Positions 1 through 46,569 of a stretch of 64,000 nt of DNA are shown one piece after another. Under the pieces are notes generated by a model. The model saw only the letters and a list, made by a program, of their open reading frames with translations, ran no database searches and was not told where the DNA came from. Position 1 is the stretch's first letter. Each line of letters starts with the position of its first letter. The translations under genes and the position numbers were made by a program. Origin of the DNA: the human T2T-CHM13v2.0 reference genome, Homo sapiens; assembly GCF_009914755.1 (NCBI RefSeq), contig NC_060937.1. One strand, written 5' to 3'.

Positions 1-1280
1 CTCTGCATTGGTTATTCTAGTTAGCCATTCGTCCAATCTTTTTTTAAGGTTTTTAACTTCTTTGCCGTGGGTTCAAACTTCTTCCTTTAGCTCAGAGTAA
101 TTTGATCGTCTGAAGCCTTCTTCTCTCAACTCGTCAAAGTCATTCTCCATCCAGCTTTGTTCCATTGCTGGTGAGGAGCTGCATTCCTTTGGAGGAAGAG
201 AGGCACTCTGATTTTTAGAATTTTCAGTTTTTCTGCTCTGTTTTTTCCCCATCTTTGTGGTTTTATCTACCTTTGGTCTTTGATGATGGTGACATACAGA
301 TGGGGTTTTGGTGTGGATGTCCTTTCTGTTTGTTAGTTTTCCTTCTAACATTCAGGACCCTCAGCTGCAGGTCTGTTGGAGTTTGCTGGAGGTCCACTCC
401 AGACCCTGTTTGCCTGGGTATCAGCAGCAGAAGCTGCAGAACAGCGGATATTGGTGCACAGCAAATGTTGCTGCCTGATCGTTCCTCTGAAAGTTTTGTC
501 TGAGAGGAGAACCTGGCCGTGTGAGGTGTCAGTCTGCCCCTACTGGGGAGTGCCTCCCAGTTAGGCTACTCGGGGGTCAGGGACCCACTTGAGGAGGCAG
601 TCTGTCCATTCTCAGATCTCAAGCTGCGTGCTGGGAGAACCACTGCTCTCTTCAAAGCTGTCAGACAGGGACATTTAAGTCTGCAGAGGTTTCTGCTGCC
701 TTTTGCTTGGCTATGCCCTGCCCCCAGAGGTGGAGTCTACAGAGGCAGGCAGGCCTCCTTGAGCTGCAGTGGGCTCCACCCAGTTCGAATTTCCCAGCCG
801 CTTTGTTTACCTACTCGAGCCTCGGCATTCATGGGCGCCCCTCCCCGAGACTCGCAGCTGCCTTGCAGTTTGATCTCAGACTGCTGTGCTAGCAATGAGC
901 GAGGCTCCGTGGGCGTAGGACCCTCCGAGCCAGGTGGGGAATATAATCTCCTGGTGTGCCATTTGCTAAGACCGTAGGAAAAGCGCAGTATTAGGGTGGG
1001 AGTGACCCGATTTTCCAGGTGCCGTCTGTCACCCCTCTCCTTGGCTAGGATAGGGAATTCCCTGACCCCTTGTGCTTCCCGGGTGAGGCCATGCCTCGCC
1101 CTGCTTCAGCTCATGCTTGATGCGCTGCACCCACTGTCCTGCACCCACTGTCTGACAATCCCCAGTGAGATGAATCCGGTACCTCAGTTGGAAATGCAGA
1201 AATCATTCGTCTTCTGCGTCGCTCATGCTGGGAGCTGTAGAATGGAGCTGTTCCTATTCGGCCATCTTGGCTCCACCCTC
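1..1280 (-). mobile_element. LINE-1 (L1PA4-6-like) 5' UTR and start of ORF1; continues beyond the left edge of the window
   Basis: Minus strand begins GAGGGTGGAGCCAAGATGGCCGAATAGGAACAGCTC at 1280 (L1 5' end with YY1 site). ORF 73..351 contains MGKKQSRKTENSKNQSAS...MENDFDELREEGFRRSNYSELKEEV (ORF1p N-terminus). The 5'UTR retains the segment deleted in L1PA2/L1HS. Confidence 0.95.
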
Positions 1281-1341
1281 TGCAACTCTTGATTTCTGAG
1301 TTCTTCCAAGCATCTGAGTTCTTCTTGATGCCTCATTAGAT
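1281..1341 (-). pseudogene. PSPC1P1: PSPC1 (paraspeckle component 1, DBHS family) pseudogene exon, coiled-coil region, cut by L1 insertion
   Basis: Acceptor tcattattttgtag| followed by (D)[20 protein letters not shown], versus PSPC1 [24 protein letters not shown]. Phase matches the 8804 donor (G|AT = Asp). The P1 symbol is inferred from neighbouring ANKRD26P. Confidence 0.88.
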
Positions 1342-1547
1342 CTACAAAATAATGACTACACAGTAATATTTTTAGTTTCCCTTTCCATATTTTTATACCA
1401 ATAAGCATAGAAGTTCTCTGTCACTGGCAATATATTGGTATATTACTCATTTTATAATAAATTGTAAGCTGGGTAATTAATCAAATAAATATCCTTTCTG
1501 AGCACGTTTCTTCATGTATATAAAAAAGAGTATTCAAGTTCATTCTT

Positions 1548-1835
1548 GGCCAGGTGCGGTGGCCCACGCCTGTAATCCCAATACTTTGAGAGGCCAAGGC
1601 AGGTGGATCACTTGAGGCTAGGAGTTTGAGACCAGTCTGGCCAACAAGGCAAAACCCCAACTCCACCAAAACTACAAAAATTAGCTGGGCATGGTGGTGT
1701 GTGCCTGCAGTCCCAGCTACTCAGAAGGCTGAGGTAGGAGAATCACTTGAACTCGGGAGGTGGAGGATGCAGTGAGTCGAGATTGTGCCACTGCACTCCA
1801 GCCTGAATGACAGAGCAAGACTCCATCTCAAAAAC
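1548..1835 (+). mobile_element. Alu (AluS-type), full length
   Basis: Dimeric Alu consensus; TSD CAAGTTCATTCTT on both sides. Confidence 0.9.
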
Positions 1836-1879
1836 AAGTTCATTCTTGTTGGGGAAAAAAAGCATAATAAACTCCTCTT

Positions 1880-2650
<771 letters not shown>

Positions 2651-3071
2651 TGACAGGCTTTTAACCTCTCAGATCTTATCACCTTACCTGTAACATTGGT
2701 ATAATTAGCTCAAAGGCTCCAACAATGAAATTATCAAATAAGCACAATTAGCTAATACTTAAAAGAACTATAGACTTAAAACTACCATTTTATGCTCACT
2801 AAATTATAAATTTTTTAAAGTTTCTAATACCCAAAGTTCCTGAAATTTCACTAAAGCTTATACATCTGTACACTGCCATGATAACATCTTTGTAAGGGAA
2901 AAAAACTGTAAAAAGTACATAACTAGAGATGTCTTTATCTTTTGATCCAGGAAATTACACTCAGGAATTTTTCTTAACAAAATAAAACAAAGCCATCTAC
3001 AGACATGAAGCCATCATCTACAGTATTACTTATTACTTACTAAATCAAATAACACTTTGAAATGCTTTCCT

Positions 3072-3400
<329 letters not shown>

Positions 3401-3679
3401 AATGCTGTCCTAACACATTTAATGATAAAATTACATGAAATTATATGCTATAATTTCAATGTATCATAAATACAGGTACAGAAAAAAGGAATATAAACAA
3501 ACTAAAATTTTGATTTGCTAGACTGTGAGACAGTGTTTTCTCAATTTAAAATTGCACAAGTCATGAAAACTGAATGTATAAGTTCTGATCTAACAATTCT
3601 ATTTTCTAAAAATACTAGTCTCTTTATTTTTCTTTCAGTTTTTATTTTACCTCTGATCTGTCTGGATTTATGACACTGA

Positions 3680-31012: not shown

Positions 31013-34000
31013 ATTCAGCGAAGCTTCACAATATAAAATCAATGTACACAAACCAGTAGCTCTACTATACACCAACAGTGACCAAGCTCAGAATCAAATA
31101 AAGAACTTAACCCCTTTTACAATAGCTGCAAAAAGACCAATACTTACAAATATACCTAACCAAGGGATGAAAGACCTCTACAAGGAAAACTACAAAACAC
31201 TGCTGAAATAAATCATAGATGACACAAACAAATGGAAACACATCCCATGTGCATGGATGGGTAGAATCAATATTGTGAAAATGACCATACTGCCAAAAGC
31301 CATCTATAAATTCGATGTAATTCCCTTCAAAATACCACCATCATTTTTCAGAGAACTAGAAAAAACAATCTTAAAGTTTGTATAGGTAAAAAAAAAAAAA
31401 AAGCCTGCACAGTCAAAGCAAGACTAAGCAAAAAGAACAAATTGGGAGGCATCACATTACCTGATTTCAAACTATACTACAAGGCCATAGTCATCACCAA
31501 AACAGCATGGTATTCGTATAAAAACAGGCACATAGAACAATTGAACAAATAGAGAACCCAGAAATAAAGCAAAATACTTACCACCAACTGATCTTTGACA
31601 AAGCAAACAAAAACATAAAGTGGGGAAAGGATACCGTATTCAACAAATGGTGCTGGGATAATTGGCAAGTCACATGTAGGATAGTGAACCTGGATCCCCA
31701 TCTCTCACCTTATACAAAAATCAACTCAAGATGGATCAAGAACTTAACTCTAAGACCTGAAACTGTAAAAATTCTAGAAGATAACATCAGAAAACCCTTT
31801 GTAGACATTGGTTTAGGCAAGGATTTTGTGACCAAGAACCCAAAATCAAATGCAATAAAAACAAAGATAAATAGCTAGGACTTAAATAAACTAAAGAGTA
31901 TTTGCCCAGCAAAAGGAACAGTCAACAGAGTAAAGAGACAACCCACAGAGTGGGAGAAAATCTTCACAATCTACCCATCTGACACAGGACTAATATCCAG
32001 AAATTAACTCAAAGAAATTAGCAAGATAAAACCAAACAATCCCATCAAATAGTGAGCTAAGGACATGAACAGACAATTCTCAAAAGAAGATATACAAATG
32101 GCAACAAACATATGAAAAAATGCTCAACATCACTAATGATCAGGGAAATGCAAATCAAAACCACAATGTGATACCACCTTACTCCTGCAAGAATGGCCAT
32201 AATAGAAAAATTAATAATAATAGATGTTGGCATGGATGCAGTGAATAGGGAACACTTCTGCCCTACTGGTGGGAATCTAAACTAGTACAATCACTATGGA
32301 AAACAGTGTGGAGATTTCTCAAAGAACTAAAAGTAGAACTAACATTTGATCCAGCAATCCCACTACTGGATATCTACCTAGAGGAAAAGAAGCCCTTTAT
32401 GAAAAAGATTTTGCACATACATGTTTATAGCAGCACAATTCGCAATTGCAAAAATATAGAACCAACCGAAATGACTATCAATCAATGAATGGATAAAGAA
32501 ACTGTGGTATACATATATGAAGGAATACTACTTAGCCACAATAAGGAATGAAGTAATGGCATTTGCAGCAACCTGGATGGGATTGGAGACTATTATTCTA
32601 AGTGAAGTAATTCAGAAATGGAAAACCAAACATCTATGCCCTCACTCATAAGTGGGAACTAAGCTATGAGGATGCAAAGGCATAAGAATGGCACAATGAA
32701 CTTTGGGGACTCAGGGGAAAGGGTAAGAAGGTGAGGGATAAAAGACTACAAATTGGGTTCAGTTTACTGCTCAGGTGATGGGTGCAATCACCACTAAAGA
32801 ATTTATGTAACTGAATACCACCTGTTCCCCAAAAACCTATGGCAATAAAAAAATTAAAAAATAAAGAAACTAAAAACAGTACAGCATGTGGTTGAAAGAG
32901 TCTCCAGAGAAATAGATATCACATAGAAAAGACAATCACAACTTTTGGAAATGAAAGACACACTTAGAGAAAAGCAAAATACAGTGGAAAGTTTCAAGAA
33001 CAGATTTCAAACAAATAGAAGAAAGAAATTCAGAGTTTGAAGACAAGGTTTTCAAATTAGCCTAATCTGACAAAGACAAAGAAAAAAGAATTAAAATAAA
33101 TAAGCAAACCTCCAAGAAATGTGAAATTATGTTAAACAACCAAACATAAGAATACTTGCTGTTCCTGAGGAAGGAGAGAAATTTAAAAGTTTGGAAAATG
33201 TATTTGAGAAAATAATAGAGGAAAACTTCCCTGGTCTTGCTAGAGATCTAGACATCCAAATACCAGAAGTTCCAAGAACACCCTGGAAATTCATCACAGA
33301 AATTATCACCACCTAGGCACATAGTCATCAGGTTATCTAAAGTCAAGATGAAGGAAAACAATTTTAAGAGCTGTGAAGCAAAAGCATCAGGTAACCTATA
33401 AAGGAAAATCAACCAGATTAACAGCAGATTTCTCAGCAGAAACCCTACAAGCCAGAATAATTGGCATTCTATCTTTAGCCTCCTTAAACAAAAAAATTAT
33501 CAGCTAAAAATTTTGTATCTAGTGAAACTAAGCTTCCTAAATGAAGAGTGGTAAAGTCCTTTTCCAACAAAAAATGCTGAGAGAATTCACCACTACCAAG
33601 CCAGCACAAAAAATGCTAAAAGGAGCTCTAAACCTTGAAACAAAACCTCCACAGACACCAAAATAGAACCTCCTTAAAGGATAAATCTCATAGGGCCTAT
33701 AAAACAATAACACAATGAAAAAAACCCAAGGTATTCAGGCAACAACTGGCATGATAAACAGAAGTCCCTCACATGTCAAAACTAACATTTAATGTAAATG
33801 GCCAAATGTTCCACTTATAAGACACGGAATGGCAGAATGGATAAAAATCCACCAACCGTTTCCTGTCTTCCAGAGACTCACCTAACACATAAGGACTCAC
33901 ATAAACTTAAGGCAAAGGAGTAGAAAAAGACACTCCATCTAAATAAAAATGAAAAGTAAGCAGGAGTAGCTGTTTTTATATCAGACAAAACAGACTTTAA

Positions 34001-36021
34001 AGCAACAACAGTAAAAAAAGATAAAGAGAGACATTATATAATGATAAAAGGATTAGTTCAACTGGAAAAAGATCACATTCCTAAATGTATATGCACCTAA
34101 CACTGGAGCTCCCAAATTTATAAAACAACTACTACTAGACCTAAGAAATAAAACAGATGCCAACACAATAATAGTGGGAGACTTCACTCCTCCACTGATA
34201 GTACTAGACAGGTGATCACGACAGAAAGTTGACAAAGGAGCAATGAACTTAAACTATACCCTGGAACAAATGGACTTAACAGATATTTACAGAACACTAT
34301 ACCCAATAACTGCAGAATATACATTCTTTTCATCAGCACATGGAGCATTCTTCAAGATAAAACATATGATAGGCCACAAAACAAGTCTCAATAAATTTAA
34401 AAAAACTGAAATTATATCAAGTACTGTCAGACCACAGTGGAATAAAACTGGAAATTAATTCCAAAAAGAACCCTCAAAACTAAACAAATACATGAAAACT
34501 AAATAATGTGCTCCTGAATGGTCTTTAAACAATGAAATCAAGAGGGAAATTTAAAAATTGTTTGAACTGAATGATAATAGTGACGTAACCTATCAAAACC
34601 TCTGGGATACAGCAAAGGCGGTGCTAAGAGGAAAGTTCATGGTGTTAAATGTCTACATCAAAATGTCCGAAAGTGCACAAATAGACAATCGAAGCTCACA
34701 CCTCAAGGAACTAGAGAAACAGAACAAACAAAAGGCAAACCCAACAGAAGAAAAGAAATAACCAAAATCAGAGCAAAACTCAATGAAATTGAAACAAAAC
34801 AGAACAAAACAACACAAAAGATAAATGAAACAAAAAGCTGGTTCTTTGAAAAAATAAACAAACTCCATAGACCATTAGTGAGAGTAACAAAGAAAAGAAG
34901 GAAGAAGATCCAAATAAGCTCAATTAGAAATGAAATGGAAGATTTACGACCAATACCAGAGAAATCATTCAAAGCTACTATGAACACCTTTATGCACATA
35001 AACTAGAGAACCTAGAGGAGATGGATAGATTCCTGGAAATATACAACACGCCTAGATTAAACCAGGAGGAAATAAAAACTCTGAACAGACCAATAACAAG
35101 TAGCAAGATTGAAACAGAAATTTAAAAATTGCCAATAAAAAAAGCTCAGGACCAGATGGATTCACAGCTGAATTTTATCAGACATTCAAAGAAGAACAGA
35201 TACCAATCCTACTGAAAGTATTCCAAAAGAGAGAGAAAGAGGGAATCCTCCCTAAATCATTCTATGAGGTTAGTATCACCCTAATACCAAAAACAGGAAA
35301 GGACATAACAAAAAAAGGAAACTACAGACTGGAATACCTGATGAACATAGATGCAAAAATCCTTAACAAAATACTAGCTAACTGAATCCATTAGCATATC
35401 AAAGAGATAATACACCACGATCAAGTGGGTTTCATATCAGGGATGCAGAGTTGGTTTACCTTATGCAAGTCAAAAACTGTGGTACACCACATAAAGAGAA
35501 TTTTTTTAAAAATCACATGATCACCTCAATAGAGGCAGAAAAATCATTTGACAAAATCCAGCATACCTTTATGATTAAAACCCTTAGCAAAATCAGCATA
35601 GAAGAGACATACCTTGAGGTAATAAATGCCATCTATGACAAACCCATAGCGAACATCATACTGAGTAGGGAAATGTTGAAATCATTCCCCCTGAGAATTG
35701 GAACAAGATAACAATGCCAATTTTCACCACTTCTATTCAACATAGTACTGGAAGTCCTAGCCAGAGCAATCGGACGTGAGAAAGAAACAAAGGGCATCCA
35801 TATCAGTAAAGAGGAAGTCAAACTGTTGCTGTTCACCAGTGATATGATCATATACCTAGAAAACCCTAAAGACTCATCCAAAAATCTCCTAGAACTGATA
35901 AATGAATACAGTAAAGTTTCAAGATACAAAACCATGTACACAAATCAGTAGCATTGCTATACACCAAAAGTGACCAAGTTGAGAATAAAATAAAGAACTC
36001 AACCCCTTTTAAAACAGCAGC

Positions 36022-36024
36022 AAA

Positions 36025-36067
<43 letters not shown>

Positions 36068-36072
36068 AATAA
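36022..36072 (+). repeat. (TAAA)n microsatellite in L1 ORF2
   Basis: Direct reading. Confidence 0.9.
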
Positions 36073-37821
36073 AATACTTGGGACTATACCTAACCAAGAT
36101 GAAAGACCTCTACAAGGAAAACTACAAAACACTGCCAAAAGAAATTATAGGTGACATCAAAAAATGGAAACACATCCCATGTCCATGGATGGATATAATC
36201 AATATTGAAAAAATAACCATACTGCCAAAAACCATCAATAAATTCAATGAAATTTCCATCAAAATACCATCATCATTCTTCACAGAACTAAAAAAAAAAA
36301 ATCTTAAAAATCATACAGAACCAAAAAAGAGCCCACATAGCTAAAGCTAGACTAAGCAAAAACAACAAATCTGAAGGCATCACATTACCCAACTTCAAAC
36401 TATGCTACAAGGTTATAGTTACAAAAACAGCATGGTACTGGTATAAAAACAGGTATGTAGACCAAAGGAATAGAATAGAGAACCCAGAAATAAAGCCAAT
36501 TACTTACAGCCAACTGATCTTCTACAAGGCAAACAAAAATATAAAATGGGGAAGTGACACCCTATTCAACAAATGGTGCTGGGATAATTGGCAAGCCACA
36601 TGTAGAAGAATGAAACTAGATGATCATCTCTCACCTTATACAAAAATCAACTCAGGGTGCATCAAATACTTAAAACTAAGACCTGAAACCATAAAAATTC
36701 TAGAAGATGACACTGGAAAAATTCTTCTAGACATTGGCTTAGGCAGAGTTCATGACCAAGCATCTGAAAGCAAATGCAACAAAAACAGAGGTAAATAGAA
36801 GGGACTTAATTAAACTAAAAAGGTTCTGCACAGCAAAATAAATATTCAGTACAGTGAGCAGACAACCCACAGAGTGGGGAAAAATATTCACAAACTATGC
36901 ATTCAACAAAGGACCTAATATCCAGAATCTACAAGGAACTCAAACACATCAGCAAGAAAAAACAAATAATCCCATCAAAATGTGGGCTGAGGACATGAAT
37001 AGAAAATGCTCAAGATATATAAATGGCCAACAAACATGAAAAAATGCTCAACATCATTAAACATCAAGGAAATGCAAATCAAAACCACATTGAGATACCA
37101 CCTTACTCCTGCAAGAATGGCCATAATTAAAAAATAAAAAAACAATAGATGTTGGTGTGGATGTGGTGAAAAGGGAACACGTTTCCACTGCTGGTGGGAA
37201 TGTAAACTAGGACAACCACCATAGAAAACACTATAGCGATTCCTTAAATAACTAAAAGTAGAACTACCATTTGATCCAGCAATCCCACTACTGAGTATCT
37301 AACCAGAGGAAAAGAATTTAAAAAGACACTTGCACGCACATGTTTATAGAAGCACAATTCCCAATTGCAGAAATATAGAACCAGCCTAAATGCCTATCAG
37401 TTATCGAGTGGATAAAGAAAATGTGGTATATAGGTGTGCCATGGAATAGTACTTAGTCATAAAAAGATATGAAATAATGGCATTCATAGTAACCTGAATG
37501 AGATTGGAGACTATCATTGTAAGTGAAGTAGCTGAAGTCTGGAAACCAAATATCGTATGTTCTCATTCATAAGTGGGAGATAAGCCGTGAGGATGCAATG
37601 GCATAAGATTGACACAATGGACTTTTGGGACTCTAGGGGAAAGGGTGGAGGGGTGATAGATTAAAGACTAAACATTGGGTGCAGTGTACACTGCTTGGGT
37701 GATGGGTACACCAAAATCTCAGACATCAACACTAAAGAATTTATCCATTAACCAGACCCCACCCATTCCTCCAAAACTATTGAAATAATAATAAAAAATT
37801 TTTAAAAGATGGAAATTTCAG

Positions 37822-38580: not shown

Positions 38581-39048
38581 ATTACAGAAATTACCTGTAA
38601 TATCTATCACCTCACAAAACAATGGAAAGGTATTTATTTGTAGTGGAATTCTAAACAGATTCCCCAGATAAAAAATCAATAATGACCAAACTAATTGGAA
38701 GAGTGATAAATCTAACAAACCTTATTTTTTGATCAGTGAAGACTAATTTTTTATTTTAATTAAAGATTTTTTGATTTAGCCCTGGATAATAAAGCCAGTT
38801 AATATAGAGAATGTTCACTAGCATACATAAATTCAAATGAATTGTTAATTTAGAATGATTATTTAATATCAATAAAAATTGTCTAACCTTTTCAGGAAAA
38901 ACAATAGATATATATAACTTCAGGTAAGTTTAAGAGAAGGCGGACTGTATCCTGTTTATCATCTTGTTCCTGTTTTTATTCTGATTCAGCATACTGCATG
39001 AATTTTTTTAAAAAAGCTTCATGTGACTGTGGCCATTCCGCTCCTCTC

Positions 39049-41624
39049 TCAGGTAATATTTGATCGTTCTGTCAGAAACAGTTTTAAGGTTTGCAGAGTT
39101 GTATCTATATCAAGCAGTCTGATTAGAGGAGTTTGAACCTTTAGATCATGAAAGAGCTTACTCTGAAGTGTCATAGCTGGCATGGAGTCTATGCCTTATG
39201 ATGTGAGCAATGTGAACATCATAACGTCTTTTGAGGTTTCTATTCACGAAGACACTAGCCCAAGAAGTGGTGTACTCATCTGATGATATCCGAGATGAAG
39301 AATAAGTAAACCGAATCTTCCAGAAAACCGAATTCATCTTGGATTCTTTGGAGAAATGAATTCTAAGAGATGGAACTTGGGAAAGGTTTTCTGTATTTAC
39401 CTGAATTACATCTGACTATAGTTTGTTGAGAATTATTCAGAATTAAGCATGTTTAGAGATACTCATGGATTTTGGATATTTGAAAAGTATTTCTCTGATG
39501 GCTAAAACACTTGGAAGATGGTGTTTGTTTAGCAGTAATTCAAGAGTCAAGGCTCCCCAGTTAATTGATTGTACAGCAGAAACCCAGTTCCTGAGATAGT
39601 GGTAGAAGATGTTCAGGAAAGAGTTAGCAGCAGTATAAGTGGCTTGCACTTATACTATACTTGCACTTATATAAGAGGCTCTTATCATGTCAGAACAAAT
39701 CCTGGATTGAGATGATCCACATTTCTTATTGTTCTGTAGGTGAACACTGTCACACAACAATCAGCATTTTAGTCTTTTAGAGGCAAAATAAGTTGACGAA
39801 ATGCCTCATAGCACTTTGTTAGTTATTGAAGAAGTGTTCATGGGATGTCTTTATTTAGATTTTGAATTTCGTACATTAATAAAACATAATGGAAGTCCTT
39901 GATTTCAGTTTTCATCTTATCACATATTCTCATCTCAAAATCTCATTGTCCATTTCTGAAACCCAACATACTTGGAGTCATAAAGCAAAGAATTTTTAAG
40001 CTGTTGGGCTAATCTAATGTGTCAGCCAGAACAAGTAACAGAGCTACTTCACTGGGGTTCACAAGCATTTGAATCTGATATTTGTTTCTGCATGTTTTCA
40101 AGGAGGTTATCAGATTATATTTGTCTACTATACATGAACACAGTGTCTTCTAGCCTTGCTAAAATGGAACTATATTTGTTTCTAAAGAATCTACATACTT
40201 CAAAGTAGTTTTCTGTACATTTGATGGCCTTTATGTATACATTCACCTCCCCTTTCTGATTTTTGAAAACTCAATTTGTCTATCTCTGATGGAAAGCCAG
40301 CTTTTCCTCCAATCTTTCTGTCTCTTGTGTTCATGACAAATGCCATTTGCAAGAAACAATCTAACGGCACCAGATGGACATGATATTCATAGATGTCTCT
40401 CTGAAGATCTTCACTAACTTTGTTTTTCTGCTTTCCTTTAGCTTATTGTAAAATGAGAAGTCTTTTAACTGTTTTAAAATGGTACAATATTGGAAACCAA
40501 CATGAAAGAGTTATTCAGCAACCTCATCACTGGTCAAAATCAACTTGCACCTTTGAAAGATGCTCCCAAGAAAAATGTGTTGTTTCACTCAAAGATTTTT
40601 AAAAATGTTTTTAACTTCTTTCATTACATGAACTACTAATGAGAAAATATTATTTTAAATTTCCATTCTGTTCCTCCAGGTTCCAACTGCATCTTTAGAG
40701 ATGATCTAAAAACTTTTGACTCACCACACAGGGAGCTAAAAAAGCAACTCTTACCTGATATGTACTCAGAGGTGCTCTGGGTTTTAAACTGTCCATCACA
40801 CAAGCCAAACCAGACTCCACAAAACAGGAACCAGGAACCTAAGTAGTTCCATTGTTTTGTGCTCAAAAACACGGGGTGCTGTATCCCGAGTTCTGAAGCA
40901 ACTGAAATCTATGTTGTCACTTGTAATACTAATGAGAGGATGACTGGAGTAAGCTATTTTTTTTTCTGCAACTAACGACTCTTTACATAAGTCTTAAGAT
41001 TCTTGTGATCAAGTTGATACCTCAGGTAACCTGTTGTTTTCAAACCTTCATAAAAGCATGGCCAGTTAAGGTTGTGTCCATATCCAAATAGAGTTTGCAC
41101 CAAATCAAAAACAGTCTCATACTCTTTTTTTGGCTGTAGAAAAGAGAAAATGTAGGTTTCTTCACCTATGATTTACCTGATGTTTCTTTGGAGGGCTCTC
41201 TTAGGGGCTATTTCAACAAACATGACATTTTCCCTTCATTTGGCTGCAGTTGTGAGAGCCTGGATGAAACCAACTGGCTCTGGAATGTTCCTGTATCAAT
41301 ATTTACCAGTAGTCAAATCTTCACAAGCTGTTTTTCCTGTTGTTATTGAAATCAGCTCCATTTCTGGCTCCATCTTCCCCAAATTCCCAATGCTCTCTTT
41401 AATGTCTTTGCACACTGGATCCATCATATAATTGTGATTAGCAGCTGGAACTGACAGAATATATGAAAATATCCTGCTTTTCTCAAACTGCTGAGCCACC
41501 TCTTCATGACACTTGGCTATAGCTTCTCCCTCTCCTGACAGGGTACAGGAGCAAGGACTGTTAAAGGTGCCTTGCTCATTCTTTTGGAGGACACTAGAGC
41601 CTTTGAGATTTCTGTTCTGGGAAC
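39049..41624 (-). pseudogene. Relic of an animal iterative type I polyketide synthase (pks1/MuPKS-like): AT(C-half)-DH-KR structural subdomain//KR C-terminus-ACP; many stops and frameshifts
   Basis: Colinear motifs on the minus strand. AT: FNSPCSCTLSGE (41565-41530), VPAANHNYMMDPV (His 41434-36), RNIPEPVGFIQAL, MFVEIAPKRALQRNI. DH: EHK/NGTT*VPGSCFVESGLA (His 40859-61) and HVHLVPLDCFLQM (Asp 40359-61). KRs: CYEAFRQ...VDHLNPGFVL. KR: QATYTAANSFLNIF...QSINWGAL (Tyr 39635-37). ACP: GIDSMPAMTLQ (Ser 39184-86), PLIRLLD; stop at 39049. Confidence 0.9.
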
Positions 41625-42054
41625 CTAAAAAAGCTCTAAAATATAAAGTCCCTTATTAAAAAATAAAATATAAATCATAACTACATACAGTTAAATATAT
41701 TACATGCTTTAATACTATATCTGTTTCATAGCCACCTCCTGTTGCTATTGCAGTGAGCCCCAGTGTTGCAGGTATCCACTTAAAACACCGAGTGATGCTC
41801 ATCATCTCCACAGGAGCAGTTTGTCTCGCCGGTAAATCCTGTTTCACAGTGAAAAGTGATCTCTCATGGTATTTTTTAAAAATTATTTTTATATGTGCAT
41901 TTTATATATATATATATATATATGGTACATGAGATGTTATGCTCAAGGCATACAAAGCATAATAATCACATCAAGGTAAATAGTGTATACATCACCTCAA
42001 GCATGTATCACTTCTTTGTGTTACAAACACTCTATCTATACTTTTTTTAGTTTT

Positions 42055-42400
42055 AGGTTTGTTTTTTTATTAGACTGAGTTTCACTCTTGTTGCCCAGGC
42101 TGCAGTGCAATGACGCGATTGATCTCGGCTCACCGCAACCTCCGCCTCCCCGGGTTCAAGCAATTCTCCTGCCTCAGCCACCCGAGTAGCTGGGATTACA
42201 GGCATGTGCCACCACACCCAGCTAATTTTGTATTTTTAGTACAGACAGGGTTTCTCCATGTTGGTCAGGCTAGTCTTGAACTCCTGACCTCAGGTGATCT
42301 GCGCACCTCGGCCTCCCAAAGTGCTGGGATTACAGGCATGAGCCTAGGGTACAGAGCATGACCCTGTCTCAATAAAAAAAAGAAAAGAAAAAGAAAAAAT
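42055..42400. mobile_element. Minus-strand Alu fused directly to the 3' tail fragment of a plus-strand Alu
   Basis: ...ggcatgagcc|tagggtacagagcatgaccctgtctcaataaaaaaaag at ~42345. Confidence 0.8.
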
Positions 42401-42419
42401 CACCAATGCAATGCTAAAT

Positions 42420-44035
42420 CTAGTGGGTGAAATTTTGAGGCGTAACTAGACCTTTATAGAGCCACAAAGTATTGCCACACAAGGTATCAGTGAAATACAA
42501 AAGGTAAACTGTAACTTTACCATGGACAAACCTGACAGATACTCCTTAACCAAAGAAGCAAAGTCAACACTGGCCAGCAATGAAACCAAGTGACAGCCTC
42601 CAGATATGCTGCATAAGCCTCCAGATATGTTGTACTGGGAAGAAGTCAGCATCACCTGTGTGACATTCCTGCCTGAATGACATAACCTGAATCTAATAAT
42701 GAGGAAACATCATATGAACACAAACTGAGAAAAAAATCCATAAAATAATTGACCCATACTCTTCAAAAACGTGAATGTTATGAAAAATCAAAGAAAGGCT
42801 CAAAAACAGTCCCAGATTAAAGGAGAACAAAGAAAGAGGACAATTGGACCCAATACATCATGGAATGTGAAAATCCCCCATCTTGGATTTTCTTTGGCTA
42901 TAAAGGATATTATGGGGGAAATTGGCAAAATCTTAGTAAGGTCTGTCAATTAGATGTTAATATTGAATCAGTTTCAATTTCCTGATTTTGATAACGATAA
43001 TCATAGTTATGTAAGAAAATTTCTTTTTAGGAAATAGTAAAGTATTTAGAAATAAAGAGGCATCATGTCTGTGACTAACAAATGGTTCAGGAAGAGAAAT
43101 ATATATTGTGTACCTAAATTTATATTTATTTAGAAAGAGAAGAAGAAAAGTGGGTGAAGAAGTAAAGCAAATGCAGTAAAATGTTAACATTTGAGGAATG
43201 AGACACAAAGATTCTTTGTACTATTTTTAAAATTTTTCCTTAAGTCTGAAATTGTCAAAACATATCTAAGAAGAAAAACAAATTTTTTAAAATATCAACA
43301 AATTATATCCCATTGTATGAAATAAACCATGCATCCATGTTGATCTAAGTAAATGAATAAATTGAAGATTTTATGAGGAACAGAGATATTTACATAGTCT
43401 TAAATTACCTCCCCACAATATATGAATTAATTACAAGATGAAAAAGTAACACTGCAGAAAAGAAATCCAGCAGATACCATCATTAATTGTCAATGCTAAT
43501 ATCACCAGTAATAAGACAAATCAAAATTATAGGTTATATGGTAGGATGCAATGAGAAGATCCCAGGATCACCTCTGAGATACTCTTGCTGAAAATAACAC
43601 AATCTAAATCTAATCATAATGAAACATCAGGAAAAAACAACTGAGAGACATTCTATACTCTGAACTTTACTCTTCAAAAGATTCAAAGCCATGAAGTCAA
43701 GGAAACCTGAGGAACTGCTCCAGACTGAAGGAGTGTAAGAGACACAACATCTACATGCAACCCATGGCTCTGAATGGGATCTGTCTGCTATAAAGGACAT
43801 GACAGACAATTAATAAAAGCTCAAAAGAAGCTGAAGATTGAATGACATGATGTATTAAAGTTAACTTACTGATTATCAAGGTTGTTATGTAGAGTGTCCT
43901 GACTTGTGGGAATACCTACTAAAGCAATCAGGAGTGCTGGCCTAATGTCAGCAATTTACTCTCACATGGTTCAGGGGGGAAATTATTTGTAATACAACTT
44001 GGAACTTTTCTATAATTTTAAGAGTGTTTCCAAAA
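42420..44035 (+). mobile_element. Old L1MC/L1ME 3'UTR fragments
   Basis: aacctgaatctaataatgaggaaacatca and related motifs in two diverged copies. Confidence 0.6.
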
Positions 44036-44379
44036 GGTTCACAAATAAAAATAAAAATAAAAATAAATAAATAGAAAAGGTGAAAAGCCTAAGGCAACTC
44101 ATATATTTCCAGAAGAAAAGATCTACATATATCAGTGCTTAAAATTAAGATTACGTAAGTTCGACAGCACTGTAACAGTTGACATACATCCAAACATTGA
44201 CAATGACCACAGTATCAATATGTCAAAAGGATGTCTGTCTAAATCAAAATCTATCACTATAGAAAAATTATAAAATAAGAATAAACCATCTAACTCCACT
44301 GAAGTATTAATGACAACTTAGCTGTTTGGCTGTTTAACCAGCTGGCATTTTGAAAGTTTGAGTATGTAAAACTCAATAA

Positions 44380-44709
<330 letters not shown>

Positions 44710-44909
44710 AATAATACTAGTTTACATTTGTAAGATCCATTTGAGAGTTACTCAAGAGGACCAAGAATCATTACTTTACATACTATATAAGTTTTCATCA
44801 GACAGGCATGATACAAAAATACTTTCCTTTAATAAAGATTTTCACGTCATATACATAATGGGAAGCAAAATGTCAGGTAAACAGACCAATAATTACATTC
44901 TACTGTCTT

Positions 44910-45043
44910 TCAGATCATATATTTCTGGTTAAAATCAATACATATTTCTTAATATTTCCAAACTATATCTTAATTTATATTTGACTCATCACTAGTTCCT
45001 AGATGAGGAACTACATACGATCCCAATTCAAATTCAGCAGCAT
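44910..45043 (-). pseudogene. ANKRD26P3: ANKRD26 pseudogene, terminal coding exon with two premature stops
   Basis: ttttccag| then DAAEFELGSYVVPHLGTSDESNIN*DIVWKY*EICIDFNQKYMI*, versus ANKRD26 C-terminus AAAELESGSIASPLGSTDESNLNQDLVWKASREYVQVLKKNYMI*. The P3 symbol is inferred from locus context. Confidence 0.85.
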
Positions 45044-45259
45044 CTGGAAAAAAAAAAAAGAAAGAATTACTTATCTCAAATATTCCATAGTTAACTAAGT
45101 GTAAGTCAGTAACATGAGTTGAGAACTTCATCAGTGTTCATAAGAATAAAAAATACGTATGCAATATTACAATACAAAATTACTGTGAAATATAATTTGG
45201 TCATAGTCACAGATTGAATTACCATTGTGGTTAAGTATCAGAGCTCCTGGTTTTCTCAT

Positions 45260-45790
45260 TTTTCATTCATTTATTCAACAACCATATGTTCAGGAACTAG
45301 GACAAGCACAGAAATTACAAGACGAAGATGATACAGTCCACCCCTCAACATTGCATGCTACAACCTGAAAAGCAAGCAGACACGCAGGCAATTTCCACAG
45401 ACAGTCACAGACACTATGGCAGGTATTAAACAGGGCACTGTTGGAACACACAGAAGAGACATGTTTCTCAGTTTCATGTCAATATTGTAGGCTGTTTGCT
45501 GGAGACAATATGTAGGTTAGTATCTGAAGGACAAGAGAGAAGAATGGCTGATGGAGGGAAGAACACGTGCAGAGAGCTGGAGCCGAGGAAGGTCCCTGTG
45601 TTCTGCATAGCTGACTTTGGCGAGATGATAGAGCAAAGGGACAGAGTATGGCAAGTGATGAGAGATGAGGCAGAATAACTTGACAGGAGCCAAACTGATT
45701 TGGGTGTTTTTACTCCATGCTAGGAATCTGGAACCTTTCCTGAGAGCAAAAGTAAACCAATGACAAAGTAAATGACTGGAGATTTAAAAT
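45260..45790 (+). mobile_element. L2-like remnant
   Basis: ttcattcatttattcaaca start and gagatgaggcaga...actggagattt motifs typical of L2 3' ends. Confidence 0.45.
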
Positions 45791-46235
45791 GTCACCTGTC
45801 ACGTAGCTGCCTTTGAACTGGAGTAGCCTGAGTGTTACTAGATGAGCCTGGAGTCTGTCTCTTGGCCTTAAATCACCACCATAAACCTGGGAAGTCGATG
45901 ATGCCTTTGTTTTCTGAGAACAGTTTCAGTGTGCTGGCTGGCAGGTCCATAGGGACGGTAGAAGTGAAGAAAGTGTAGAGCCAGAGGAAAAAGGATACAC
46001 AGACTTCTTGAGATTTCTCTGAAGCTAAGGTACATGATGAATTAATGACGAGTTAAGTATACTTTTCATTATAAATGTTAATGCTTTCACATCTTCCATT
46101 AGTGGTGTGTATGAAAAAATATTTAACATATTACCTGTTAACCAAATTATGGAAAGGGATGCTTGCTATTTGCTATTCATAGTTTGTTTCAGAAATCAAT
46201 GAATTAAATTTAGTTCATAAACTTTGGCAACATAC

Positions 46236-46281
46236 CTTTTAGTAGCTCTCTAGCTATACTGTCTTGAAACTCCTGCGGCAT
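46236..46281 (-). pseudogene. ANKRD26P3: ANKRD26 pseudogene penultimate exon (46 bp)
   Basis: atttcag|ATGCCGCAGGAG...CTAAAAG|gtatg gives MPQEFQDSIARELLK versus ANKRD26 MQQELEKNITRELKE; phase fits the terminal exon. Confidence 0.82.
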
Positions 46282-46569
46282 CTGAAATATGTCAAATATA
46301 ATTTATAATGTTTAAGTTAAACAGGAAACATTATTATGAGAATGATACATCACTTATAAAAATGTAGCCTTTTATATAATAATTTCAAAGGCTAGATCTA
46401 ACTTGAGAATTGCTTAAACAATAACCATATAAATAAAATTCCTACTTATTTTAAGTTTAGATAACAGAGAACATATATGTGTTGTGCTGTTTAGATTAAT
46501 ACTAACAGCATTGATAAAAACTACAATTAATATTGATATATTAAAAATAACAACTATATCATGGTGATA

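What the first reader, a model, noticed from the sequence alone, without database searches (positions are those of the whole stretch)
39049..46281. PKS relic lies 3.3 kb downstream of an ANKRD26 3' end: probable co-duplicated ancestral linkage
Seen: both are on the minus strand. The ANKRD26P stop is at 44910 and PKS homology begins at 41624, with no recognisable KS or AT N-half between them. From memory, ANKRD26 lies in the 10p12 ABI1/YME1L1/MASTL/ACBD5 neighbourhood and the avian PKS maps near the same genes. Inference: the ancestral PKS locus is next to ANKRD26, and dead copies were spread with ANKRD26-family segmental duplications. Several PKS relics, possibly one with the KS domain, may then exist in the genome.
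Basis: inference. Interest (0 to 1): 0.72.

Follow-up and report, generated by a model that had tools for sequence, protein, structure and literature searches.

The report
Dead polyketide synthase beside ANKRD26 copies
The human genome still holds broken pieces of a vertebrate polyketide synthase gene that placental mammals are said to have lost, and these pieces travelled with copies of the neighbouring ANKRD26 gene from chromosome 10 to chromosome 13 and elsewhere.

Summary
Window 39049-41650 (minus strand) is a dead fragment of a vertebrate type I polyketide synthase (PKS): AT C-half, DH, an internal deletion, KR C-end, ACP. It aligns to an animal PKS at E 5e-85, with 17 in-frame stops and at least 6 frame changes. 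It has no KS or AT N-half.

At the parent locus, four KS exons lie 33.5-41 kb 3' of ANKRD26 on the same strand (C10:26994425-27002052). Seven more partial relics exist, on chr13, chr16 (two), chr14 (two), chr22 and chr2.

- Two sit directly 3' of ANKRD26-type exons: chr13:20.48 Mb and chr16:52.26 Mb.
- Four sit 65-72 kb 3' of POTE-actin genes. They belong to one duplication block.
- One has no identified neighbour.

ANKRD26 flank homology runs to window 42391 at 74.7% identity with chr10.

One amendment: the chr10 KS exons are far less decayed than the dispersed pieces. The parent gene probably outlived its truncated copies.

Papers state that placentals have no PKS. I found no paper linking PKS to ANKRD26. 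There is no sign of present function.

The parts
40975..41650 (-). PKS relic: C-terminal half of the acyltransferase domain and the post-AT linker (P0001 aa 342-543; frog P0205 aa 676-868). It has 3 in-frame stops. Homology starts abruptly at about 41620-41650.
   Evidence: Pfam Acyl_transf_1 E 6.4e-4. PDB PKS AT domains, best E 4.7e-4. tblastn 42% identity over 202 aa. 44% identity to frog PKS.
39691..40969 (-). PKS relic: dehydratase domain and the following linker (P0001 aa 546-979; P0205 aa 882-1312). It spans several frames and holds 13 in-frame stops in the P0001 alignments. One stop lies in the stretch that aligns to P0001's H-x3-G-x4-P motif; that motif label is recalled, not taken from a call.
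   Evidence: tblastn HSPs in frames -1, -3, -1, -2. Stop positions. 71.6% nt identity to the chr16:52.26 Mb copy over window 39663-40553.
39647..39690 (-). Junction of an internal deletion. About 560 codons (P0205 aa 1313-1875: central region and KR N-part) are replaced by 44 bp. The other copies keep this part.
   Evidence: Gap between HSPs. The chr16:52.26 copy runs through aa 1019-1488, and the chr14/22/2 copies cover aa 1339-1930.
39405..39646 (-). PKS relic: C-terminal end of the ketoreductase domain (...TYTAANSFLNIF...).
   Evidence: Pfam KR E 7.2e-5, above the curated cut-off. 51% identity to P0001 and 55% to frog. 76-82% nt identity to five other copies.
39049..39219 (-). PKS relic: acyl carrier protein domain with the GIDS attachment motif. 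A stop (TAA) lies one codon before the motif. The frame ends in TGA at 39049-39051.
   Evidence: Pfam PP-binding E 0.044. tblastn 41% identity over 56 aa. Alignment of six copies. Sequence read.
38632..39048 (-). Non-coding 3' flank of the PKS relic, shared with the chr2, chr14, chr22 and chr16p copies. It holds AATAAA about 70 nt after the stop, with no poly(A) run after it.
   Evidence: blastn 71-75% identity from window 38632 to 39405/39408. Sequence read.
41656..42344 (.). Transposon filler between the PKS fragment and the ANKRD26 flank: two old dispersed repeat pieces (41656-42045) and an Alu (42041-42344).
   Evidence: 2100 genome-wide candidates at 75-85% identity. Many Alu matches. The hub table masks 42038-42405.
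42391..44811 (-). 3' flank of ANKRD26P3, homologous to the 3' flank of ANKRD26 on chr10. This marks the end of the ANKRD26 duplicon on this side.
   Evidence: blastn: window 42391-44360 matches C10:27033557-27035499 at 74.7% over 2032 nt.
44812..46281 (-). Last four exons and introns of the transcribed pseudogene ANKRD26P3.
   Evidence: Hub gene table. 77% nt identity to C10:27035513-27037099 and 87% to C13:20470752-20471326.
33008..37820 (.). Old L1 element bounding the relic region on the far side. It is not part of the relic.
   Evidence: About 80% identity to many loci genome-wide.

Best explanation
Window 39049-41650 is a non-functional fragment of the giant last exon of the vertebrate type I iterative PKS. 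This is the KS-AT-DH-KR-ACP enzyme known from birds, reptiles, fish and marsupials.

The gene's home is 10p12.1, just 3' of ANKRD26 and on the same strand. Four KS exons still sit there. An old genomic (DNA-level) duplication copied ANKRD26 together with its downstream neighbour into what is now pericentromeric 13q, where it became ANKRD26P3. The same happened for 16q and probably for the block that now carries the POTE-actin genes.

In the chr13 copy, the roughly 45 kb or more between the ANKRD26 flank and the middle of the AT domain was lost. That brought the PKS fragment to within 3.2 kb of ANKRD26P3, and transposons now fill the junction. A second deletion removed the central region and the KR N-part. 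The fragment has drifted neutrally since then.

Shown here: the domain content, the decay, the other copies, the chr10 KS exons and the ANKRD26 flank homology.

Inferred: a single block duplication followed by deletion; the age (about 0.16 substitutions per site per lineage, roughly the early placental radiation); and that the 10p12 parent gene was still working when the truncated copies arose.
For: Identity of the relic:
- AT, KR and ACP Pfam hits are collinear.
- tblastn to animal PKS P0001 gives E 5e-85.
- Identity to the named frog PKS P0205 is 44-55%.

Decay:
- 17 in-frame stops and at least 6 frame changes.
- Differences between copies are spread evenly over the three codon positions in every pair tested (chi-square 0.01-4.45, 2 df).

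Parent locus:
- Pfam KS hits of 52-57 bits fall in three open exon-like pieces at C10:26994437-26999758.
- A fourth exon lies at C10:27001885-27002058.
- AG/GT splice sites are kept, and there is one 1-nt frameshift.
- The best relatives are shrew and manatee KS gene models at 75% and 67% identity, then fish, frog and lizard PKS.
- ANKRD26's 3' end is at about C10:27035513 on the same strand.

Linkage seen more than once:
- chr13:20.48 Mb: an ANKRD26P3-type piece (87% identity) lies 7-8 kb from a PKS piece (85-89% identity), collinear with the window.
- chr16:52.26 Mb: DUF3496 exons lie 7.7 kb 5' of the PKS piece, on the same strand. A CCDC144C exon lies 24 kb further up.
- chr2, chr14 (two) and chr22: the PKS pieces lie 65-72 kb 3' of POTE-actin ORFs on the same strand, 4 of 4.

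Flank: window 42391-44360 is 74.7% identical to the chr10 ANKRD26 3' flank.

Matching ages: PKS pieces differ by 24-28% between lineages. The ANKRD26P1-type and P3 CCDC144C exons have K2P 0.316.

Gene structure: the parrot PKS has six exons, and the sixth covers at least residue 428 to residue 1957 (PMC11739604, passages). That fits split KS exons and an unbroken AT-to-ACP stretch.

Synteny:
- Lizard Pks lies between Rab18 and Acbd5 (PMC10990284, passages).
- Two fish gene models fuse KS with YME1L1 domains. P0215's sequence was read; P0190 is known from its Pfam listing only.
Against: - No continuous homology joins the ANKRD26 flank to the PKS piece. About 740 bp of transposons lie between them, so a single block duplication is inferred rather than seen.
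- The first 20 kb 3' of ANKRD26 on chr10, and C10:26981000-26994389, hold no AT-to-ACP sequence. No part of the PKS is present both on chr10 and in the dispersed copies, so the two cannot be aligned to each other.
- The four POTE-linked copies are one block (97-99.9% identical). They count as one observation, at a distance of 65-72 kb.
- No ANKRD26-type exon lies within 8.5 kb 5' of the chr14 copy.
- The neighbour of the chr16:39.16 Mb copy is unknown.
- The CCDC144C-exon tree is star-like and does not show that the chr13 and chr16 pseudogenes share a founder.
- The order of human 10p12 genes and the position of the avian gene rest on recall and on passages about lizards. I did not inspect chicken or marsupial DNA.
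Confidence: 0.8

Rival explanations
1. Mosaic assembly. The PKS fragment and the ANKRD26P3 segment both come from 10p12 but reached pericentromeric chr13 as separate duplicated pieces. They were then joined there, as is common in pericentromeric duplication mosaics.
For: - The homology breaks at window 42391, and transposons lie between the two parts.
- The chr14, chr22, chr2 and chr16p copies start at other PKS residues (about aa 1339 and 1519), with no ANKRD26 exons close by.
Against: - Order and orientation (ANKRD26 paralogue, then PKS, same strand) are the same as on chr10 in three separate lineages: the chr13 block, chr16:52.26 Mb and the POTE block.
- The divergence of the PKS pieces matches that of the ANKRD26 paralogue exons.
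Confidence: 0.11
2. Ancestral site on chr13. The relic marks the original PKS locus at 13q12.11, and the ANKRD26P3 duplicon landed beside it by chance.
For: Before the chr10 search, the first 20 kb 3' of ANKRD26 showed no PKS sequence.
Against: - KS exons of the same gene family sit 3' of ANKRD26 on chr10.
- The chr16:52.26 Mb relic also lies 3' of an ANKRD26 paralogue.
- Fish and lizard data place PKS in the YME1L1/ACBD5 neighbourhood (PMC10990284, passages).
Confidence: 0.04
3. Retrocopy. The relic is a 5'-truncated processed pseudogene made from PKS mRNA, which would explain the absence of introns.
For: The 2.6 kb of coding homology has no introns and starts abruptly inside the AT domain.
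Against: - In parrots the whole AT-to-ACP part is a single exon, so the lack of introns says nothing (PMC11739604, passages).
- No poly(A) run follows the AATAAA after the stop, and paralogue homology continues at least 420 bp past the stop.
- A retrocopy landing 3' of a paralogue of its own genomic neighbour, in the same orientation, and doing so at more than one locus, is very unlikely.
Confidence: 0.03

Closest known systems
Vertebrate type I iterative polyketide synthase (budgerigar MuPKS, chicken LOC420486, medaka and zebrafish pks1, marsupial PKS)
   Same: - Same domain order (AT, DH, KR, ACP in the window; KS on chr10).
- Best sequence matches are vertebrate PKS proteins.
- Same gene layout: split KS exons and one giant last exon (PMC11739604, passages).
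- Same chromosomal neighbourhood (PMC10990284, passages).
   Different: The human material is broken, scattered and incomplete.
- No locus holds more than part of the gene.
- Residues about 270-656 (KS C-part and AT N-half) were found nowhere in the genome.
- The window copy has 17 stops and an internal deletion.
Human fatty acid synthase (FASN, 17q25.3)
   Same: Related multidomain fold, with KS, AT, DH, KR and ACP domains.
   Different: The relic is not a FASN copy. P0001 matches FASN exons only weakly (E 0.009 genome-wide; 33-36% identity over about 75 aa). It matches the window at E 5e-85. The chr10 KS exons are 79-82% identical to the manatee PKS model over exons 3 and 4 (66-67% over the other two). 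That same model is 44% identical to the FASN KS exon.
ANKRD26 to POTE/ANKRD26P duplication family
   Same: The relic pieces lie in the same duplicated blocks, on the same strand and on the 3' side of ANKRD26P3, an ANKRD26P1-type gene and POTE-actin genes. POTE is described as a descendant of ANKRD26 (PMC7073761, passages).
   Different: In the passages I read, that paper describes the gene copies themselves and says nothing about a passenger PKS fragment. POTEA on chr8, said to be the copy closest to ANKRD26, showed no PKS piece in my searches.
Unitary pseudogenes left by lineage-wide gene loss (for example GULOP; recalled, not tested)
   Same: The chr10 KS exons are what remains of a gene at its original locus, with no working copy elsewhere in the genome.
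   Different: Here the dead gene also has dispersed duplicated fragments. These appear older in their decay than the remnant at the home locus.

Membership tests
Vertebrate type I iterative PKS (KS-AT-DH-KR-ACP) | AT, DH, KR and ACP domains in that order on one strand | tested here: met
   Pfam AT, KR and PP-binding hits are collinear. tblastn to P0001 and to frog P0205 covers AT C-half, DH, KR C-end and ACP in order.
Vertebrate type I iterative PKS (KS-AT-DH-KR-ACP) | Ketosynthase domain at the N-terminus | tested here: not met
   No KS is present anywhere in the window. KS exons are found only at the parent locus on chr10. The window element is therefore a fragment and not a whole gene.
Vertebrate type I iterative PKS (KS-AT-DH-KR-ACP) | Closer to vertebrate PKS than to FASN or bacterial PKS | tested here: met
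   - The window AT ORF is 46% identical to P0001, the only hit.
- It is 44% identical to the frog PKS.
- The best solved bacterial AT domain reaches only E 4.7e-4.
- P0001 matches FASN only weakly.
Vertebrate type I iterative PKS (KS-AT-DH-KR-ACP) | Open reading frame able to encode an enzyme | tested here: not met
   17 in-frame stops, at least 6 frame changes and about 560 codons deleted.
Segmental duplicate of the ANKRD26 locus | Flanking non-coding homology to the parent locus beyond the gene | tested here: met
   Window 42391-44360 matches C10:27033557-27035499 at 74.7% over 2032 nt.
Segmental duplicate of the ANKRD26 locus | The passenger sequence (PKS) is present next to the parent gene, in the same order and orientation | tested here: met
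   Four KS exons lie at C10:26994425-27002052 on the minus strand, 33.5-41 kb 3' of ANKRD26. The AT-to-ACP part itself is absent from chr10.
Segmental duplicate of the ANKRD26 locus | Unbroken homology from the gene through to the passenger | tested here: not met
   Homology to chr10 stops at window 42391. Transposons occupy 41656-42344.
Processed (retroposed) pseudogene | Poly(A) tail at the 3' end of the homology | tested here: not met
   No A-run follows the AATAAA near 38980. Paralogue homology continues to 38632 or beyond.

The most novel reading that the evidence does not exclude
The PKS was not lost at the origin of placental mammals. The 10p12 parent gene stayed under selection in the human lineage for most of the time since the ANKRD26 copies arose, and it died late when its giant exon was deleted.

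Evidence:
- The four human KS exons keep their splice sites.
- They have no in-frame stop and only one 1-nt frameshift in about 244 codons.
- The human branch shows about 11.6% amino-acid change. Neutral drift over the age of ANKRD26P1 and ANKRD26P3 would give about 28%.

If this is right, PKS loss in placentals happened several times and recently, and some living placentals, possibly some primates, may still make a polyketide.
Probability: 0.2. Interest if true: 0.75.

Novelty: new member of a known kind. Interest (0 to 1): 0.6.

Why it matters
Two papers state that placental mammals lack PKS genes (PMC4604110 and PMC10764717, passages). These relics supply physical evidence of the loss and its location.

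- They place the ancestral gene at 10p12.1, next to ANKRD26.
- They suggest that the story is more complicated than a single early loss.
- The fragments are a neutral passenger marker for tracing how ANKRD26-derived duplicons, including the POTE blocks, spread through pericentromeric regions.

Nothing suggests that the relics have a function in humans today.

Tried and rejected
- **The search of protein representatives** with chr10 KS exon 3 gave 20519 hits. The top 150 were all proteins of 3587-7892 aa matched in 4-6 stretches, presumably multi-module bacterial PKS (the library gives no names). It confirmed the KS fold but gave no vertebrate relatives.
- **The last homologous-protein search** (frog KS region against proteins of 1076-3425 aa) was also dominated by bacterial and unnamed metagenome PKS. 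Of the 120 rows listed, only the frog query itself, one fish and one alga were eukaryotic. Whether any placental has a long PKS model stays open. could only see proteins up to 2000 aa.
- **Unique homology between chr10 and the other loci.** I looked for matches between the fetched chr10 stretches and the window outside 42391-44360, and between chr10 and the flanks of the other copies. Only Alu and L1 matches turned up.
- **Apparent match of window 36238-37578 to chr10.** This is L1.
- **Shared disabling mutations** between the three old relic lineages. None were found. The stops beside the ACP motif in the window and in chr16p lie in neighbouring codons and are independent.
- **A common founder for the chr13 and chr16 ANKRD26 pseudogenes.** The CCDC144C-exon tree is star-like and does not support one.
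- **A 7-kb flank 5' of the chr14 copy** holds no ANKRD26, POTE or actin domain (plus-strand ORFs only).
- **Chance similarity and bacterial contamination** were considered and rejected on the E-values and the vertebrate best hits.


Full report
**What is in the window**

Stop-to-stop ORFs on the minus strand between 39052 and 41652 gave three collinear Pfam hits:
- Acyl_transf_1 at 41299-41652 (E 6.4e-4).
- KR at 39446-39649 (E 7.2e-5, above the curated cut-off).
- PP-binding at 39052-39195 (E 0.044).

Only these 3 of the 25 ORFs submitted gave a PKS domain. A search with the AT ORF for longer relatives returned one protein, P0001. It is 1753 aa, carries KS-C, AT, DH and KR domains, and is encoded without introns on a 6-kb contig.

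tblastn of P0001 against all 64 kb aligned as follows:
- aa 342-979 to 41571-39691.
- aa 1546-1627 to 39646-39405.
- aa 1684-1739 to 39219-39052.

The joint E-value is 5e-85, and nothing else in the window scored below E 1. The named frog PKS P0205 (1957 aa, KS to KR) matches from aa 676 onward only. The window therefore has no KS and no AT N-half.

The fragment carries 17 in-frame stops and changes frame at least six times. It lacks about 560 codons between the post-DH linker and the KR C-end. Only 44 bp lie at that junction, 39647-39690. The frame ends in TGA at 39049-39051. The hub gene table lists nothing at these coordinates.

**Surroundings**

- ANKRD26P3's last exon is 44812-45043 (hub table).
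- Window 44700-46300 is 77% identical to C10:27035513-27037099, which is ANKRD26 itself.
- The homology continues past the gene. Window 42391-44360 matches C10:27033557-27035499 at 74.7% over 2032 nt.
- Between 42391 and the start of PKS homology (about 41650) lie an Alu (42041-42344) and two old dispersed repeat pieces (41656-42045).
- On the other side, 33008-37820 is an old L1.

**Other copies in the genome**

DNA and protein searches of the window's own assembly, refined locally, found seven further AT-to-ACP fragments. Residue numbers are those of frog P0205.

| Locus | Strand | PKS residues | Notes |
|---|---|---|---|
| C13:20478403-20480537 | + | 657-989 | 85-89% nt identity to the window |
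| C16:52263426-52264878 | - | 1019-1488 | 71.6% nt identity |
| C16:39163651-39166259 | - | 1519-1955 plus ACP | |
| C14:13385482-13388496 | + | about 1339 to ACP | |
| C14:13637800-13640813 | - | about 1339 to ACP | |
| C22:16368804-16371818 | + | about 1339 to ACP | |
| C2:132127034-132132602 | + | about 1339 to ACP | |

The last five share an L1 insertion inside the KR region.

In the KR-ACP segment:
- The window is 74-76.5% identical to those five copies.
- chr16p is 85% identical to the chr2/14/22 copies.
- chr2 is 97% identical to chr14/22.
- The chr14 and chr22 copies are 99.7-99.9% identical to each other.

Together the copies cover aa 657 to the end. The chr16:52.26 copy runs through the stretch that is deleted in the window.

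**The parent locus**

The first 20 kb 3' of ANKRD26 (C10:27015500-27035499) showed no PKS similarity (best E 1.2).

A genome-wide scan with Pfam ketoacyl-synt found three open exon-like pieces on the chr10 minus strand, besides OXSM and FASN:
- 26999564-26999758.
- 26996771-26996932.
- 26994437-26994625.

They score 52-57 bits. The manatee model P0154 added a fourth piece at 27001885-27002058.

Together the four exons cover aa 19-256 of the frog protein:
- They keep AG and GT splice sites.
- They have no in-frame stop.
- They carry one 1-nt frameshift in the third of the four.
- An Alu abuts the 5' side of the first.
- The catalytic cysteine motif reads DSACSSS.

They lie 33.5-41 kb 3' of ANKRD26, on the same strand.

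Their best database relatives are KS-only or KS-N plus KS-C gene models from shrew (P0153, 75% identity) and manatee (P0154, 67%). Fish, shark, frog and lizard PKS follow.

KS-C and the AT N-half (aa about 270-656) were found nowhere in the genome with Pfam PF02801, Pfam PF00698, P0001 or P0154. The search warned that weak matches could be missed. The 13 kb below the last KS exon holds nothing.

**Linkage to ANKRD26 paralogues**

- chr13:20.48 Mb: an ANKRD26P3-type piece (C13:20470752-20471326, 87% identity) lies 7-8 kb from the PKS piece. It is collinear with the window and has L1 insertions between.
- chr16:52.26 Mb: DUF3496 exons lie at 52272615-52272803 and 52275111-52275272, and a CCDC144C exon at 52296709-52297674. 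All are on the minus strand, 5' of the PKS piece. An ERV fragment lies between.
- The four copies on chr2, chr14 and chr22 lie 65.1, 72.4, 72.3 and 72.3 kb 3' of POTE-actin ORFs, on the same strand. They are one duplication block, so they count as one observation.
- No ANKRD26-type domain lies in the 7 kb fetched 5' of the chr14 copy.
- Four other chr2 POTE-actin genes, and POTEA on chr8, have no PKS piece in my searches.
- The neighbour of the chr16:39.16 Mb copy is unknown.

Tally over the nine loci:
- Four lie within 41 kb 3' of an ANKRD26-type gene.
- Four lie in the POTE block.
- One is unresolved.

**Age and state at copying**

- CCDC144C-exon distances are K2P 0.237 (ANKRD26 to P3), 0.254 (ANKRD26 to the chr16 gene) and 0.316 (P3 to the chr16 gene).
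- The two pseudogene branches are 0.16-0.17 substitutions per site, in a star-like tree.
- The PKS pieces differ by similar amounts between lineages.
- By recalled calibration of old human repeats, this points to roughly the early placental radiation. That date is rough.
- Differences between copies fall evenly on the three codon positions in every pair with at least 40 shared codons and 15 differences (chi-square 0.01-4.45, 2 df). The copies have therefore drifted neutrally since they separated. Alignment noise lowers the power of this test.
- No disabling mutation is shared between the three old lineages.

**The chr10 KS exons look younger in death**

- Human is 78.5% identical to manatee, 81.5% to shrew and 68.8% to frog.
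- Manatee is 76.9% identical to frog, and manatee is 83.1% identical to shrew.
- These figures give a human branch of about 11.6%, similar to manatee (about 10%) and shrew (about 7%).
- A simulation of neutral drift at K = 0.16 on these exons gives 28% amino-acid change and 2.8 new stops, with P(no stop) = 0.06.
- The pooled stop density of the dispersed copies is 36 stops in 2437 aligned codons. At that density about 3.5 stops would be expected in the KS exons. None is seen (P about 0.03 by my arithmetic).
- I read this as suggestive evidence that the 10p12 gene was still constrained long after the truncated copies arose. The shrew and manatee sequences are predicted models, so this reading could be wrong.

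**Literature**

- Hojo et al. list no PKS in human, cattle, dog, dolphin or mouse. They list full genes in opossum and Tasmanian devil, a pseudogene in platypus, and chicken LOC420486 (PMC4604110, passages).
- PMC10764717 (passages) states that no PKS was seen in any placental mammal.
- The parrot gene has six exons. G112 lies in exon 3, R243 in exon 5, and residues 428 to 1957 in exon 6 (PMC11739604, passages). This matches split KS exons and an unbroken AT-to-ACP stretch.
- In wall lizards, Pks and Ptchd3 copies lie between Rab18 and Acbd5. That paper says the same broader region is implicated in budgerigar and redpoll (PMC10990284, passages).
- Two fish gene models (P0215, P0190) fuse KS with YME1L1 domains. 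P0215's sequence reads YME1L1 followed by KS.
- The human gene order ABI1-ANKRD26-YME1L1-MASTL-ACBD5-PTCHD3-RAB18 is recalled, not tested.
- POTE is described as a descendant of ANKRD26, older than 35 Myr (PMC7073761, passages).
- No paper holds both 'polyketide synthase' and 'ANKRD26'. Searches combining polyketide synthase with pseudogene and mammals, birds and synteny, or with placental, gave nothing relevant.

**Verdict**

The window holds a duplicated, truncated and decayed piece of a gene whose home is 3' of ANKRD26 at 10p12.1. The close 3.2-kb spacing is secondary, produced by loss of the intervening sequence. There is no sign of present function.

The main open points:
- Whether one block duplication or a mosaic produced the arrangement.
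- Whether the POTE-block copies arrived with an ANKRD26-type gene.
- When the parent gene died.

Noticed in passing
G000:C10:26994425-27002052 (loci L040, L042): Four PKS ketosynthase exons at the parent locus are unusually well kept. Splice sites are intact, there is no in-frame stop, and there is one 1-nt frameshift. They are 78-82% identical to the shrew and manatee KS gene models. An L1 3' end sits in the intron between the last two exons (C10:26995153-26996573).
   Followed up: partly
Proteins P0153 (Sorex araneus, 266 aa) and P0154 (Trichechus manatus, 455 aa): Public annotation already holds short PKS KS gene models in two placental mammals. The manatee model extends into KS-C. This sits uneasily with published statements that placentals have no PKS.
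   Followed up: partly
Proteins P0215 and P0190: Two fish gene models fuse a PKS KS domain with YME1L1 domains. P0215's sequence, read, shows YME1L1 followed by KS on one strand. P0190 is known from its Pfam listing only.
   Followed up: no
L038 about 690-3632 = G000:C16:52267071-52270013: Retrovirus-type ORF fragments (MLV integrase C-end, Gag MA, TLV coat) lie between the chr16 ANKRD26-type DUF3496 exon and the PKS piece. I take this to be an old endogenous retrovirus insertion.
   Followed up: no
G000:C14:13386729-13387432 and the matching places on C14, C22, C2 and C16:39.16 Mb: One L1 3' fragment is inserted at the same point of the KR region in five relic copies. It marks them as descendants of one copy.
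   Followed up: partly
G000:C23:4858951-4859115: A weak Pfam ketoacyl-synt hit on the X chromosome (31 bits, profile positions 159-213, open frame 185 aa). It is unexplained.
   Followed up: no
window 44910-45041, minus strand: In the terminal ANKRD26P3 frame the first stop is at 44970-44972.
   Followed up: yes
G000:C16:52296709-52297674: The CCDC144C exon of the chr16 ANKRD26-type pseudogene is still an open 330-aa frame (436 bits), despite K2P 0.25 from ANKRD26.
   Followed up: no
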